A program made the translations under genes and the position numbers. DNA of 64,000 bases from Spirochaetia bacterium (GTDB lineage: Bacteria; Spirochaetota; Spirochaetia; SZUA-6; Bin103): NCBI GenBank assembly GCA_965208065.1, contig OZ242313.1, positions 4,382,369 to 4,446,368 on the forward strand, written 5' to 3'. The notes below the pieces were generated by a model. The model ran no database searches, had not been told where the DNA came from, and saw only the letters and a program-made list of their open reading frames with translations. Position 1 is the first letter of the stretch; each line of letters begins with the position of its first letter. This document shows, piece after piece, positions 30,665-36,871 of the stretch.

Positions 30665-30674
30665 CGGTCAAAAA

Positions 30675-30712
30675 ACAGACAGGCGTCTTGACATTAACAG
30701 ACATACGTCTGT
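30675..30712 (+). promoter_or_regulatory. candidate LexA operator: two AACAGAC half-site palindromes (AGAC-N4-GTCT) overlapping a TTGACA -35 (30688-30693) in the lexA promoter
   Basis: First copy is the imperfect 'acagac aggc gtcttg' (30675-30690). Second copy is the perfect 16-bp palindrome 'ACAGAC ATAC GTCTGT' (30697-30712), 15 nt before the lexA ATG. Confidence 0.5.
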
Positions 30713-30726
30713 ATTGTCGATTTCCC

Positions 30727-31368
30727 ATGACTGCCGCTTCCCGATACCGCTCCCAAGAGCGCAAACGGCGCATCTTCCTGTTTGTGCGCGACCGCATTCT
30801 GTCCGGGGCGCCGCCCACCACCCGCGAGGTGCAGGCCCACTTTGGCTTCCGCGCGGTACAGTCGGCGCGCGACTATCTGGAGGCCCTGGTGCGGGACGGC
30901 CTGCTGGACAAGGAGCCGGGCAAGGCGCGCGGCTACCGCCTGCCGGCCGGGAGCACGCCCTATCCCGCGGTGCTGGTGCCCCTCCTCGGACGGGTCCAGG
31001 CGGGCGCCCTCACTACCGCCAGCGAGGATCCGGACGGCTACGTGCCGGTGCAGTCGGCCAAGCCGCGCGACGAGCTGTTCGCCCTGCGTGTGCGCGGCGA
31101 AAGCATGCGCGACGCCGCCATTCTGCCTGGCGACGTGGTAATCGTGCACCGCCAGGAAAGCGCCGCCTCGGGCGAAATCGTCGTGGCACTGGTGGAGGAC
31201 GAGGCCACGGTAAAGCGTCTCAAGCTGCGCGCCGGGCGCATTGAGCTGCATCCCGCCAACCCGGCGTTCGATCCGATCGTGCCCGACGCCGACCGGGTGC
31301 GGATCCTCGGCAAGGTGATCGAGGTGCGCCGCTACCTGGAAGGCAGCGCCCCGGTGCTGGAACCGTGA
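30727..31368 (+). CDS. lexA: LexA repressor (S24 peptidase)
   Basis: N-terminal winged-helix region, Ala-Gly cleavage region, and Ser/Lys catalytic dyad ('GESM' ... 'KRL'). Confidence 0.9.
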   Translation: MTAASRYRSQERKRRIFLFVRDRILSGAPPTTREVQAHFGFRAVQSARDYLEALVRDGLLDKEPGKARGYRLPAGSTPYPAVLVPLLGRVQAGALTTASEDPDGYVPVQSAKPRDELFALRVRGESMRDAAILPGDVVIVHRQESAASGEIVVALVEDEATVKRLKLRAGRIELHPANPAFDPIVPDADRVRILGKVIEVRRYLEGSAPVLEP

Positions 31369-33615: not shown

Positions 33616-33628
33616 ACGGACATCGGCG

Positions 33629-36600
33629 ATGGGCTACGTACCGCTGTGGTGCAAGAGCAACTTCTCGTTCCTGGAGGGCGCCAGCCACCCCGAAGAACTG
33701 GTGCAGCGCGCCCGCGAACTGGGCATACCCGCGCTGGTGCTGGCCGACCGGGACGGCGTCTACGGCATCGTGCGCGCCCACGTCGCCGCCGCCGGCGGCG
33801 GCCCGCGCCTGATCGTCGGTGCGCAGGTCACCGTCTGCGACCGCCCCGACGATCCCGATACCGATATCAATGCCGAAGCCGACGCCGTCATTCTGATCCT
33901 GCTGGTGCAGGACCGCGCCGGCTACGCCAACCTGTGCCGGCTCATCTCACGCGGGCGGCTGCGCTGCGCCAAGGGGGAGAGCCGGGTGGGCTGGCAGGAG
34001 GTGGCCGACCACGCCGGCGGCCTGCTAGCCCTGTGGCAGGGCCGCCGCCTGCTGGCCGCCGGCGCTCCCGGCGTTGTCACCGCCGAAGGTGAGCTCTGGC
34101 GGCAGCGCACGGTGCAGCTCCGGGAGGCGTTTCCGGATCGCCTCTACGGGCTGGTTACCCGCCACCGGCTGGCCGCCGACCCTCGCATCGAGCGCCGGCT
34201 CACCGCCGGCTGCCGCCGCCTCGGGGTGCCGCTGGCCGCCGCCACCGAGGTGCTCTACCATCACCGCGACCGGCGCCCGTTGCAGGACGTGGCCACCTGC
34301 ATCCGCCACCGCACCACCCTGGCCGCATCGGGCGCCCTGCTGCGCGCCAACGGCGAGCACGGCCTCAAGGCGCCGGCGGCGTTCGCCCGCCTGTTCGCCG
34401 ACCGTCCCGAGCTGGTGGCCGCCACCCATGAAATCGCCGCCCGCTGCACGTTCTCGCTGAGCGAGGTGCGCTACCGCTACCCGTCGGAGCGGCTGCCGGA
34501 CGGCTACACCTCGGCGCAGTGGCTGCGCCGGCTCACCTTTGCCGGGGCGCGCAAGCGCTACGGCGGCCCACCGCCGCCCGCCGTCGCCAAACAGCTCGCC
34601 ACCGAGCTGGAGGTGATCGAGGATCTCGACTACTGCGGCTATTTCCTGACCATGTACGAAATCGTCAGCTTCTGCCGTGACCGCAAAATCCTGTGCCAGG
34701 GGCGCGGCTCGGCTGCCAACTCGGCAGTGTGCTACTGCCTGGGCATCACCGCCGTCGACCCGGTGCACATGGATCTGCTGTTCGAGCGCTTCCTGTCCCG
34801 GGAGCGCGCCGAGCCGCCCGACATCGACCTCGACATCGGCCACCGGCGCCGCGAGGAGGCGATCCAGTTCGTGTACCGCAAGTATGGCCGCGAACGCGCC
34901 GCGATGGTGGCCAACGTAATCCGCTACCGGGCCAAGTCGGCGATCCGCGACGTGGGCAAGGCACTCGGCCTGCCGGCCACCGCCCTGGACCGGGTAGCGC
35001 GGCTCATCTCCCACCACGACAGCGACTTTCCGGTGGCCTTGGAGAGCGCCTTCCGGCAGGCCGGCCTCGACCCCGATCACCCATCACACCATCTCCTGAC
35101 CGCTCTTGCGGACCAGATCCGCGACTTTCCGCGCCACCTGTCGATCCACCCCGGCGGCTTTCTGCTCGGCAGCGAACCGGTGGCCACGCTGGTGCCGGTC
35201 GAGAATGCCAGCATGGAGGGGCGTACCGTGATCCAGTGGGACAAGTACGACGTGGAGGCGCTCGGCCTGTTCAAGGTGGATCTGCTCGGCCTCGGCGCGC
35301 TGACCCATCTCGACCTCGCCTTCGGCCTGATCCGGCGCCACCACCGGCGCCGCCTGACCATGGCCACGGTGCCATTCGACGACGCGGAGGTGTTCGACAT
35401 GGTCAGCACCGGCGACACCGTTGGGGTGTTTCAGATCGAGAGCCGGGCGCAGATGTCGATGTTGCCGCGCCTGCGCCCGCGCACCTTCTACGACCTGGTG
35501 GTGCAAGTGGCGATCGTGCGCCCCGGACCGATTACCGGCGGCATGGTGCACCCCTACCTGCGGCGCCGCAACGGCGAGGAGCCGGTGGAGTACCCCCACC
35601 CGGCGCTGCGCCCGGTGCTGGAGAAGACCCTGGGCGTGCCGCTGTTCCAGGAGCAGGTAATGAAGCTGGCGGTGGTGGCGGCCGACTACACCCCCGGCGA
35701 GGCGGACCAGCTGCGCCGCGACATGGCCGCCTGGCGCCGCTCCGGGGCGATCGAGAAGCATGCCGGGAAGCTGATCTCGCGCATGCAGGCCAAGGGAATC
35801 GAGCCCGAGTTCGCCGAGCGGGTGTTCAACCAGATCCGCGGCTTCGGGGAGTACGGCTTCCCGGAATCGCACGCCGCCAGCTTCGCGCTGGTCGCCTATC
35901 TGACCGCCTGGCTCAAGCACCACTACCACGACGCGTTCACGGCGGCGCTGCTCAACGCCTGGCCAATGGGTTTCTACGCACCGGCCACCATCGTCGACGA
36001 CGCCCGCCGCCACGGCGTGGAGGTGCTGCCGATCGACGTCACGCGCAGCGCCTGGCTGTGCACCCTGGAGCCGGCGCGAAGGCCGGGCAAGTGGCGCTGC
36101 GCGGTGCGCATGGGGCTGCGCTACGTGAAGGGACTGGCGGAGCGGGCCGGCGAGGCCGTCGTCGCGGCGCGCACGGCGCGGCCGTTCCGGTCGGTGGGCG
36201 ACCTGATCGAGCGCGTGCCGGCCCTGGCGCAGGACGACCTGCTGCGGCTGGCCGAGAGCGGCGCCTGCAACACGCTGGCCGCGGAACCGGACGGCGCCCG
36301 GGTGCGGGAGGGAACCGGGCGGCGCGGCGATGCCCGGCGCCGCGGGCGCCTGTGGGAGGTGCTGGGCGCGGCGCGGCGGCGCGGGCGCGGCACGCCGCTG
36401 CCGCTGCACGCCCCCGGCGCCGAGTTGCGCTTCGCGCCGCTCGACCAGTTCGCCGCCATCGCCTGGGACTACGCGGCCGCCGAGCACAGCACGCGCGGCC
36501 ATCCGCTGGAGCCGTTGCGCGCCCGGCTCAGCGCGTGTTCGCTGCCCGCCGCCAGCGAGGTGATCGCCATGCGCAACGGCAGCGCGGTGTCCTACGCCGG

Positions 36601-36871
36601 GCTGGTGATCTGCCGGCAGCGGCCCGGCACCGCGGCCGGCGTGGTGTTCATGACCCTGGAGGACGAAACCGGATTCGTGAACCTGGTGGTGTGGTCGAAA
36701 GTGTTCCAGCAGTACCGGTCCACCATCCTCACCACCTCATTCCTCGGGGTCAGCGGCGCCATCCAGTCGCAGCACCACGTGGTGCACATCATCGCCAACC
36801 GCTTCTGGCTCCCCGACCTGCCATCCGACGAGGACGCAAACGTCCAGATCCGCAGCCACGATTTCCACTGA
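33629..36871 (+). CDS. dnaE2: error-prone DNA polymerase III alpha subunit DnaE2 (ImuC)
   Basis: 1080 aa; PHP domain N-terminus '[17 protein letters not shown]', pol III alpha core; no tau/beta-binding tail; last gene of the cassette. Confidence 0.9.

What the first reader, a model, noticed from the sequence alone, without database searches (positions are those of the whole stretch)
30670..36871. Complete lexA-imuA-imuB-dnaE2 SOS mutagenesis cassette with a paired AACAGAC/GTCTGTT-type operator
Four co-directional genes with ATGA/TGAnGTG junctions form the known translesion cassette (LexA, ImuA-like, ImuB, DnaE2). The lexA promoter holds two copies of AACAGAC 22 bp apart. The second copy is a perfect 16-bp palindrome ACAGAC-ATAC-GTCTGT overlapping the -35/-10 spacer, placed exactly where a LexA operator belongs. 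This AGAC-N4-GTCT arrangement is not one of the LexA-box consensus types I know (CTGT-N8-ACAG; CGAAC-N4-GTTCG; GTTC-N7-GTTC; GGTT-N10-AACC; cyanobacterial RGTAC-N3-DGTWCB), so it may be a lineage-specific SOS box. The ImuA-like protein is very divergent
Basis: partly seen in the sequence, partly recalled or inferred. Interest (0 to 1): 0.6.

Follow-up and report, generated by a model that had tools for sequence, protein, structure and literature searches.

The report
Self-repressed mutagenesis operon, new LexA box
This is a damage-inducible "mutagenesis" operon (lexA, an ImuA-like gene, imuB, dnaE2) whose own repressor LexA most likely shuts it off through two copies of a CAGAC-N4-GTCTG palindrome. 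That box sequence did not turn up in the literature I could search, and it recurs in front of related cassettes in many bacterial phyla.

Summary
Window 30727-36871 encodes lexA, a divergent ImuA-like protein, imuB and dnaE2 as one co-directional unit.

The only sigma-70-like promoter (TTGACA 30688-30693, 18 bp, TATTGT 30712-30717) carries the only two AGAC-N4-GTCT palindromes in 64 kb:
- op2, a perfect 16-mer at 30697-30712, sits in the -35/-10 spacer.
- op1 at 30675-30690 has its right arm fused to the -35 (GTCTTGACA).

Relatives support a LexA operator. LexA proteins at least about 50% identical are almost always followed by the same cassette, in MAGs labelled Spirochaetia/Spirochaetales, Acidobacteriota, Binatia, Hydrogenedentota and others. 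26 of 44 have an exact AGAC-N4-GTCT in the lexA promoter. Where the operon is interrupted, a new copy sits before the next cassette gene.

An exact-match metagenome scan found the box mainly before lexA, imuA or dnaE2, never before recA or uvrA. The evidence therefore shows cassette autoregulation, not a general SOS box, and the box is not specific to one lineage.

It shares the xxxAC-N4-GTxxx layout of the Gram-positive box but has different specificity bases. No binding experiment exists. Verdict: new variant of a known kind, moderate interest.

The parts
30675..30690 (.). Operator 1 (op1), ACAGACAGGCGTCTTG. An imperfect AGAC-N4-GTCT palindrome whose right arm overlaps the -35 (GTCTTGACA).
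   Evidence: 15.3 bits with a matrix built from foreign sites. The same GTCTTGAC fusion is conserved in L081, L085/L086, L087 and L088/L089.
30688..30693 (+). -35 hexamer TTGACA.
   Evidence: It is the only sigma-70-like promoter in 30400-37400.
30697..30712 (.). Operator 2 (op2), ACAGACATACGTCTGT. A perfect 16-bp palindrome filling the -35/-10 spacer, 22 bp centre-to-centre from op1.
   Evidence: 30.9 bits. A homologous site occupies the same promoter position in 26 of 44 related lexA loci retrieved by protein similarity.
30712..30717 (+). -10 hexamer TATTGT. The lexA ATG follows 9 nt later with no Shine-Dalgarno sequence, so the mRNA is probably leaderless or nearly so.
   Evidence: The same -10-to-ATG spacing of 6-9 nt is seen in L006, L009, L013, L083 and L084.
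30727..31368 (+). lexA (213 aa). It has an N-terminal winged-helix DNA-binding domain, the Ala92-Gly93 cleavage site, and the Ser126/Lys163 catalytic pair.
31365..32084 (+). ImuA-like RecA-fold accessory protein (239 aa). It lacks a Walker A GKT motif and falls below the threshold for canonical ImuA.
   Evidence: NF033429 22.8 bits against 150. (best PDB match is the concatenated multi-RecA chain 3cmt, E 8e-6; single RecA chains reach only E about 0.014-0.04). It is conserved at 26-64% identity in the same position in L001-L036.
32062..33615 (+). imuB (517 aa), a Y-family-like protein.
   Evidence: IMS domain. (DinB models score far below their cutoffs). (synteny).
33629..36871 (+). dnaE2 (imuC), an error-prone Pol III alpha paralogue (1080 aa). 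The listed ORF begins at 33230, but the profile match and the ATG at 33629 place the real start 13 nt after the imuB stop.

Best explanation
This is a self-contained, DNA-damage-inducible mutagenesis operon repressed by its own first gene product.

Proposed mechanism:
1. LexA dimers bind two CAGAC-N4-GTCTG-type operators. One lies in the -35/-10 spacer. The other overlaps the -35, two helical turns away (22 bp) and so on the same face of the DNA.
2. Bound LexA excludes RNA polymerase from the single promoter of lexA, imuA-like, imuB and dnaE2.
3. DNA damage produces RecA-ssDNA filaments. These trigger LexA self-cleavage at Ala92-Gly93 by the Ser126/Lys163 pair.
4. The operon is derepressed, and the ImuA-like/ImuB/DnaE2 translesion complex is made together with new LexA, which closes the loop.

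Shown here: the genes, the cleavage and catalytic residues, the promoter, the two operators, and their conservation and re-creation in relatives.

Inferred: that LexA is the protein that binds, RecA dependence, cooperativity between the two sites, and leaderless translation.

The regulon appears to be mainly or only the cassette itself, as I recall was reported for Pseudomonas putida LexA2. This could not be checked on a whole genome.
For: - Gene identities.
- Cleavage site and catalytic residues are invariant across 24 homologues.
- Promoter and operator geometry.
- Independent matrix scores of 30.9 and 15.3 bits against 5.6 or less at any other independent position in the window.
- LexA relatives at about 50% identity or more are almost always followed by imuA-like, imuB and dnaE2 (L001-L036), whereas relatives at 40-45% identity are lexA alone.
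- 26 of 44 lexA loci retrieved by protein similarity have an exact AGAC-N4-GTCT within about 120 bp upstream. In total there are 37 hits in 503 kb, 34 of them at the lexA promoter or in cassette gaps. Control LexA loci have 3 hits in 479 kb.
- The box is kept in a relative whose flanking DNA is visibly AT-rich (L088/L089) as well as in high-GC ones.
- Where the operon is split, a new box precedes the next cassette gene: L001 6621 and L082 10668 (lexA-imuA gap), L084 11906 (after an inserted gene, before imuA), L083 13313 (after an inserted gene, before dnaE2).
- In an exact 18-mer scan of metagenomes, 40 of 120 hits lie directly upstream of a lexA homologue. Two lie upstream of dnaE2 and two next to imuA (one adjacent, one at a contig end). 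Three more are lexA genes running off contig ends.
Against: - There is no binding, footprint or expression data.
- Three LexA lineages with dissimilar recognition helices carry the same box (window type, Steroidobacteraceae type, Armatimonadetes-like type). This means either convergence or a different common binder.
- No box was found near any other SOS gene, so classical SOS-box behaviour is unproven.
- The organism's whole genome could not be scanned, so it is unknown whether this is the only LexA.
- Op1 alone (15.3 bits) is within the range of the best chance hits (maximum 17.6). It is supported mainly by its conserved position.
Confidence: 0.8

Rival explanations
1. The palindrome is the general SOS box of this organism. 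This LexA would be its only LexA and would also repress recA, uvrA, dinB and other genes through weaker CAGAC-N4-GTCTG-like sites elsewhere in the genome.
For: - Duplicated or diverged LexA proteins are proposed to take over whole regulons (model described in PMC8565304).
- A stand-alone-looking LexA lineage (L194, L214, L215) uses the same box.
- The exact-match scan could only detect perfect sites, so weaker regulon sites would have been missed.
Against: - No second site occurs in 64 kb of the same genome.
- None of the non-cassette hits in the 120-locus scan lay beside a recognisable SOS gene.
- The LexA clade is tied to the cassette across phyla rather than to a host lineage, as expected for a dedicated regulator.
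Confidence: 0.25
2. The palindrome is bound by another regulator, a host factor or a different cassette protein, rather than by the cassette's LexA.
For: Three LexA lineages with different recognition helices sit behind the same box: GFRAVQSARDYLEAL, GLRNRQGIDQHLRAL and NISSLRGVTDHLVAL.
Against: - The only protein common to all loci with the box is a LexA encoded immediately downstream.
- The hosts span unrelated phyla, so a shared host factor is unlikely.
- The layout matches known LexA boxes of the Gram-positive type.
- From memory, different LexA sequences converging on this type of motif has been reported before (Sanchez-Alberola 2015; paper not held).
Confidence: 0.07
3. The inverted repeat is an RNA hairpin, acting as a terminator or stabiliser for the upstream MFS transporter gene.
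For: It lies 30 bp after the MFS stop codon. Low-GC hits to the same 18-mer elsewhere are often terminator-like hairpins flanked by A-runs and T-runs.
Against: - The stem is weak, with a fold z-score of only -1.8 and no T-run.
- The terminator scan does not call it.
- Its position is conserved relative to the -35/-10 and the lexA start, not relative to the upstream gene, which differs between loci.
Confidence: 0.03

Closest known systems
Pseudomonas putida lexA2-imuA-imuB-dnaE2 (imuC) operon (Abella et al. 2004, 2007; summarised in PMC3901139 and PMC5261740)
   Same: - Same gene order, with the cassette's own lexA as first gene.
- A single damage-inducible transcription unit repressed by its own LexA.
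- From my memory of the abstracts: LexA2 derives from the Gram-positive LexA type and regulates essentially only its own operon. That matches what is seen here.
   Different: - The box sequence differs. As I recall it, the P. putida LexA2 box is of the GTAC-N4-GTGC type; the papers are not held, so this is unverified. Here it is CAGAC-N4-GTCTG.
- There are two operators here.
- The accessory protein here fails the canonical ImuA model (22.8 bits against 150).
- The host is a high-GC MAG labelled Spirochaetaceae, not a proteobacterium.
- Whether a primary LexA1 is also present is unknown.
Gram-positive LexA (DinR) box CGAAC-N4-GTTCG (Bacillus subtilis, Staphylococcus aureus; Table 1 of PMC9578287)
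   Same: Palindrome of two 5-bp arms around a 4-bp A/T-rich spacer, with invariant AC...GT next to the spacer. The nearest non-cassette LexA relatives (40-45% identity, Clostridia and Actinobacteria) carry AAAC-N4-GTTT or GAAC-N4-GTTC in their promoters.
   Different: The specificity positions differ (CAGAC against CGAAC or xAAAC). The protein's recognition helix (RAVQSARDY) differs from that of B. subtilis.
Non-canonical LexA of Sideroxydans and Gallionella (GAACGaaCGTTC; Sanchez-Alberola et al. 2015, cited in PMC8565304)
   Same: A laterally spread LexA that recognises a B. subtilis-like motif in an unexpected host. It is a precedent for unrelated LexA DNA-binding domains converging on one motif type (recalled from the abstract; the paper is not held).
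   Different: That LexA controls a full SOS regulon and is not the first gene of an imuA-imuB-dnaE2 operon. Its motif sequence is different.
Leptospira interrogans LexA1 (TTTG-N5-CAAA), the only experimentally studied spirochaete LexA (PMC3789691, PMC4756842)
   Same: Same host phylum, going by the MAG labels.
   Different: The box is unrelated and there is no cassette linkage. The window's box therefore does not follow host phylogeny.

Membership tests
LexA repressor (TIGR00498) | N-terminal LexA winged-helix DNA-binding domain plus C-terminal S24 peptidase domain, scoring above the curated cutoff | tested here: met
   PF01726 E 3e-10, PF00717 E 2e-30, TIGR00498 162.7 bits against a cutoff of 110.95. 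Aligns with E. coli LexA structures 1jhh and 3jso at E about 1e-31.
LexA repressor (TIGR00498) | Ala-Gly self-cleavage site and Ser/Lys catalytic pair | tested here: met
   A92-G93, S126 and K163 are invariant in 24 aligned homologues.
LexA repressor (TIGR00498) | Binds an operator in its own promoter and is inactivated by RecA-stimulated cleavage | not testable with these tools
   Only in-silico support is available: palindromes in the promoter, conserved and re-created in relatives.
imuA-imuB-dnaE2 mutagenesis cassette | DnaE2/ImuC error-prone Pol III alpha paralogue | tested here: met
   NF004225 1301.9 bits against a cutoff of 939. The replicative DnaE model NF004226 scores 679 against a cutoff of 1002.
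imuA-imuB-dnaE2 mutagenesis cassette | ImuB: Y-family-like protein, not a DinB orthologue, catalytically degenerate | tested here: inconclusive
   It has an IMS domain (E 1e-9), and DinB models score 21-34 bits against cutoffs above 250. Read by eye, the N-terminus is VDVG rather than DxD, and WLEV stands where I would place the DE motif. No formal alignment of catalytic residues was made.
imuA-imuB-dnaE2 mutagenesis cassette | Canonical ImuA (NF033429) or ImuA' (NF058630) | tested here: not met
   NF033429 scores 22.8 bits against a cutoff of 150, and ImuA' gives no hit. Similarity is to the RecA core only, and is weak (best PDB match the multi-RecA chain 3cmt, E 8e-6). By contrast the Steroidobacteraceae cassette's ImuA scores 208 bits. 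The protein is ImuA-like by position and fold class but is not a member of the curated family.
imuA-imuB-dnaE2 mutagenesis cassette | Co-directional, tightly packed operon under LexA control | tested here: met
   The junctions are a 4-nt overlap, a 23-nt overlap and a 13-nt gap, behind a single promoter carrying operators. Regulation itself is inferred.
P. putida-type lexA2 cassette | Cassette-encoded LexA coexists with a primary host LexA and controls only the cassette | not testable with these tools
   Only 64 kb of this genome is available, and it holds no second lexA and no other box. The metagenome scan suggests cassette-only sites.
P. putida-type lexA2 cassette | LexA2 box sequence (recalled as GTAC-N4-GTGC-like) | tested here: not met
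   The box here is CAGAC-N4-GTCTG. GTAC and GTGC half-sites do occur in a few clade members (L003, L029, L036). The reference motif is from memory, because the papers are not held.
Gram-positive (Cheo) LexA box CGAAC-N4-GTTCG | Consensus half-site CGAAC | tested here: not met
   The half-site is CAGAC. The layout is the same, but two of the five positions differ.

The most novel reading that the evidence does not exclude
One 18-bp promoter-operator design, TTGACA followed by (A/C)CAGAC-N4-GTCTG(G/T) and then the -10, may be used by at least three LexA lineages whose recognition helices are unrelated. Each lineage heads a different damage-inducible polymerase cassette:
- divergent ImuA-like + ImuB + DnaE2, the type in this window;
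- canonical ImuA + ImuB + DnaE2, in Steroidobacteraceae;
- RadA-like + DUF8156 + family-B polymerase, in an Armatimonadetes-like lineage.

That would imply either repeated convergence on one optimal LexA interface, or horizontal exchange of a portable 'repressor + operator + polymerase' module. In some hosts this box may be the only SOS box, which would make it a LexA motif not found in the searched literature.
Probability: 0.35. Interest if true: 0.6.

Novelty: new variant of a known kind. Interest (0 to 1): 0.45.

Why it matters
The imuA-imuB-dnaE2 cassette drives damage-induced mutagenesis and the evolution of drug resistance in many bacteria. How it is switched on outside a few model organisms is largely unknown.

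This result supplies a concrete, testable operator (CAGAC-N4-GTCTG) for a large, mostly uncultured set of cassettes. It shows that selection re-creates the operator whenever the operon is broken. It also gives another case for the open question of why LexA changes its binding motif so readily, because unrelated LexA DNA-binding domains appear to use the same site. The gene cassette itself is ordinary and already well described.

Tried and rejected
**Literature**
- The exact motif, written six ways, gave no paper.
- The recalled P. putida LexA2 motif, written six ways, gave no paper.
- The key primary papers are not held: Erill 2006, Abella 2007, Sanchez-Alberola 2015 and Erill 2016.
- I therefore cannot exclude that the box was described in one of them.
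- A search on Sideroxydans and Betaproteobacteria returned only irrelevant papers.

**Plasmid collection**
- Plasmid relatives of the window LexA are at most 44% identical and are ordinary Actinobacteria or Firmicutes lexA.
- Plasmid relatives of the Steroidobacteraceae LexA are ordinary enterobacterial lexA, many in chromosome-sized records.
- Neither search reached P. putida or Xanthomonas LexA2.

**Regulon test**
- The capped metagenome scan with an exact 18-mer recovered many unrelated low-GC hairpins, including terminators and a recurrent site beside a 589-aa gene from low-GC contigs (I did not annotate it).
- It can only see perfect sites, so it does not test for weak regulon members.

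**Recognition helix against box core**
- Loci with ATAC, GTAC or ACAC cores tend to have changes in the RAVQ segment.
- L109 (RSVQ) still has AGAC.
- No clean recognition code emerged.

**Other explanations and checks**
- Terminator or hairpin reading rejected.
- Recent horizontal acquisition of the cassette in this lineage rejected. Its GC content matches the flanks. Synteny with the upstream MFS, DUF3179 and M24 peptidase genes is kept in relatives.
- No tRNA and no Rfam family in the window.
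Full report
**What is in the window**

The region holds four co-directional genes.
- lexA (30727-31368, 213 aa) has the LexA DNA-binding domain and the S24 peptidase domain. It passes the curated LexA model at 162.7 bits against a cutoff of 110.95.
- Its Ala92-Gly93 cleavage site and its Ser126 and Lys163 catalytic residues are invariant in 24 homologues.
- The second gene (31365-32084) overlaps the lexA stop by GTGA. It has no Pfam hit, scores 22.8 bits on the ImuA model (cutoff 150), and resembles only the RecA core, without a Walker A GKT motif.
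- imuB (32062-33615) has a Y-family IMS domain but scores far below every DinB model.
- dnaE2 scores 1301.9 bits on the 'error-prone DNA polymerase' model (cutoff 939). Its real start is the ATG at 33629, 13 nt after the imuB stop, not the start of the listed ORF at 33230.

The cassette call is right.

**The promoter and the two operators**

The 62-bp gap between the upstream MFS transporter gene and lexA contains the only sigma-70-like promoter in 30400-37400: TTGACA (30688-30693), 18 bp, TATTGT (30712-30717).

AGAC-N4-GTCT occurs exactly twice in the 64 kb, and both copies are here.
- Op2 (30697-30712, ACAGACATACGTCTGT) is a perfect 16-bp palindrome filling the spacer.
- Op1 (30675-30690, ACAGACAGGCGTCTTG) is an imperfect palindrome whose right arm is fused to the -35 (GTCTTGACA). 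That fusion explains why it is imperfect.
- The centres are 22 bp apart, two helical turns.

A weight matrix made only from 27 sites in other genomes scores op2 at 30.9 bits and op1 at 15.3 bits. The next independent position in the window scores 5.6. Shuffled windows give a top score of 7.4 on average and 17.6 at most.

The lexA ATG lies 9 nt after the -10 with no ribosome-binding site, so the mRNA is probably leaderless.

**Evidence from relatives retrieved by protein similarity**

These loci were not selected by motif. LexA homologues at 50-99% identity are abundant.

In one-genome-per-species contigs, nearly every relative at about 50% identity or more (L001-L036) is followed by the same ImuA-like gene, imuB and dnaE2. 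Relatives at 40-45% identity (L037-L080, mostly Clostridia) are lexA alone.

The cassette-linked clade occurs in MAGs labelled Spirochaetia/Spirochaetales, Acidobacteriota, Binatia, Hydrogenedentota, Latescibacterota, Verrucomicrobiales, Cloacimonadota, Arenicellales and Myxococcota. The window's own protein cluster is labelled Spirochaetaceae.

Of 44 such loci with upstream sequence, 26 have an exact AGAC-N4-GTCT in the lexA promoter, typically as TTGaca-(A/C)CAGAC-AWWT-GTCTG(G/T)-TAT. Most of the rest have a single mismatch or a symmetric variant core (ATAC, GTAC or ACAC). In total there are 37 hits in 503 kb, 34 of them at lexA promoters or inside cassette gaps. The control LexA loci have 3 hits in 479 kb.

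The double-operator layout with op1 fused to the -35 is kept in L081, L087 and the AT-rich L088/L089. L085/L086 keep only op1. L001 and L082-L084 keep only op2.

**The most telling observation**

Where the operon is interrupted, a new box sits in front of the next cassette gene:
- in the lexA-imuA gap of L001 (6621) and L082 (10668);
- before imuA in L084 (11906), after an inserted opposite-strand gene;
- before dnaE2 in L083 (13313), after an inserted small gene.

This is what is expected if the box is the element that keeps the cassette genes under the control of the cassette's repressor.

**Extent of the regulon**

An exact scan of metagenome contigs with AMCAGACAWWTGTCTGKT returned 120 loci, which is the cap.
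- 40 lie directly upstream of a lexA homologue.
- Two lie upstream of dnaE2.
- Two lie next to imuA, one adjacent and one at a contig end.
- By eye, three more are lexA genes running off a contig end.
- Most remaining hits are in low-GC contigs and look like terminator hairpins or unrelated sites.
- None is next to recA, uvrA, ruvAB or dinB. One lies 156 bp from an integrase that I read, from its sequence alone, as integron-type (L098).

Together with the absence of any other site in the window, this fits a dedicated, self-regulating module. An exact-match scan cannot see weaker sites, and the organism's full genome was not available. A wider regulon is therefore not excluded.

**Relation to what is known**

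The cassette with its own lexA as first gene, transcribed as one damage-inducible unit, was described in Pseudomonas putida (Abella 2004, 2007, as summarised in PMC3901139 and PMC5261740).

From my memory of those abstracts, that LexA2 derives from the Gram-positive LexA, binds a Gram-positive-like motif and controls little beyond its own operon. The original papers are not held, so I could not check the published box.

The box found here has the Gram-positive layout: 5-bp arms, a 4-bp A/T-rich spacer, and invariant AC...GT. The nearest non-cassette relatives carry AAAC-N4-GTTT or GAAC-N4-GTTC. The specificity bases differ (CAGAC).

No paper in the searchable library contains this motif in any of six notations. 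A 2021 review of the field counts 17 LexA motifs and gives examples unlike this one.

I therefore rate it a new variant of a known kind, with the caveat that the 2006 survey of the cassette could not be read.

**An unexpected extension**

The same box also precedes two other LexA lineages.
- In Steroidobacteraceae (Gammaproteobacteria; L190, L210, L212), the LexA is 51% identical to E. coli LexA and only 37% identical to the window's. It heads a cassette with a canonical ImuA (208 bits) and carries ACCAGAC-N4-GTCTGGT, or a single-mismatch version, at its promoter.
- In an Armatimonadetes-like lineage (L194, L214, L215), the LexA is about 50% identical to Bacillus LexA. It carries TTGAC(A/T)-ACCAGAC-N4-GTCTGGT-AT. 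It heads a different cassette made of a RadA/RecA-like protein, DUF8156 and a family-B DNA polymerase.

The three recognition helices are dissimilar. Either different LexA domains have converged on one operator, or some other factor binds it. From memory, convergence of this kind has been noted for B. subtilis-like motifs. The second reading is the main reason my confidence is not higher.

**Rejected alternatives**
- A terminator or hairpin role is unlikely. The stem is weak, the fold z-score is -1.8, there is no T-run, and the position tracks the promoter rather than the upstream gene.
- Chance is excluded by the comparative counts.
- The cassette is not a recent import in this lineage. Its GC content matches the flanks, and a 97%-identical relative is colinear from 20732 to the dnaE2 stop.

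**Verdict**

'Lineage-specific SOS box' should be replaced by 'cassette-associated LexA operator shared across phyla'. The gene content is ordinary. The operator variant, its re-creation after operon breaks and its sharing among unrelated LexA proteins give the finding moderate interest.

Noticed in passing
window 30712-30729: The lexA start codon lies 9 nt after the -10 hexamer with no Shine-Dalgarno sequence. Many relatives have the ATG 6-9 nt after the -10 (L006, L009, L013, L083, L084). The lexA mRNA is therefore probably leaderless.
   Followed up: partly
L083 13313; L084 11906; L001 6621; L082 10668: Where the cassette operon is interrupted by an inserted gene or an intergenic gap, an extra AGAC-N4-GTCT box sits directly before the next cassette gene (imuA or dnaE2).
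   Followed up: yes
L190 6631-6648; L210 about 5960; L212 about 5955: Steroidobacteraceae (Gammaproteobacteria) have lexA, canonical imuA, imuB and dnaE2 cassettes. Their LexA is E. coli-like (51% identity) and only 37% identical to the window's. The promoter still carries ACCAGAC-N4-GTCTGGT (L210 has a single-mismatch version, GTATGGT).
   Followed up: partly
L194 8019-8036; L214 3494 and genes 3599-7761; L215 844 and genes 893-4810: A third LexA lineage (named Armatimonadetes in one MAG) uses the same TTGACA-ACCAGAC-N4-GTCTGGT-AT promoter. In L214 and L215 it heads a different cassette: lexA, a RadA/RecA-like 221-277 aa protein, DUF8156 and a family-B DNA polymerase. This may be an undescribed LexA-controlled polymerase module.
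   Followed up: partly
L098 11682-11699: A perfect AACAGACAATTGTCTGTT lies 156 bp upstream of a tyrosine recombinase that looks, from its sequence alone, like an integron integrase. Integron integrases are known LexA targets in other groups. This is a single case and could be chance.
   Followed up: no
window 36872-38745: A 1.87-kb low-GC (0.51-0.58) insertion starts immediately after the dnaE2 stop codon, relative to a 97%-identical relative (L081). It holds ORFs without Pfam hits. One of them (36988-37230, minus strand) matches the C-terminal part of the PADLOC candidate defence protein PDC-S57 (E 6e-18).
   Followed up: partly
L002, L003, L018, L022, L027, L028, L032 (lexA promoters): Some members of the cassette-linked LexA clade have symmetric variant boxes (ATAC-N4-GTAT, GTAC-N4-GTAC, ACAC-N4-GTGT). 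These tend to go with changes in the RAVQ segment of the recognition helix, but the correlation is not clean, since L109 is an exception.
   Followed up: partly
L085 and L086, 10001-12865: In these close relatives (84% LexA identity) dnaE2 is not adjacent to lexA-imuA-imuB, and only the -35-fused operator (op1) is retained.
   Followed up: no
L037-L080 (lexA promoters): The stand-alone LexA genes of Clostridia and Oscillospiraceae MAGs mostly carry AAAC-N4-GTTT rather than the textbook GAAC-N4-GTTC (24 loci against 2).
   Followed up: no
L081 12903-16147: In the relative that is 97% identical in DNA (its LexA is 99% identical to the window's), dnaE2 is called as two overlapping ORFs. This is either a frameshift or an assembly error. 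The window copy is intact.
   Followed up: no
window 29066-30664; L081, L083, L085, L088: An MFS transporter gene directly upstream of lexA is conserved even in the AT-rich relative L088 (66% LexA identity). This suggests long-term vertical inheritance of the locus within this lineage.
   Followed up: no
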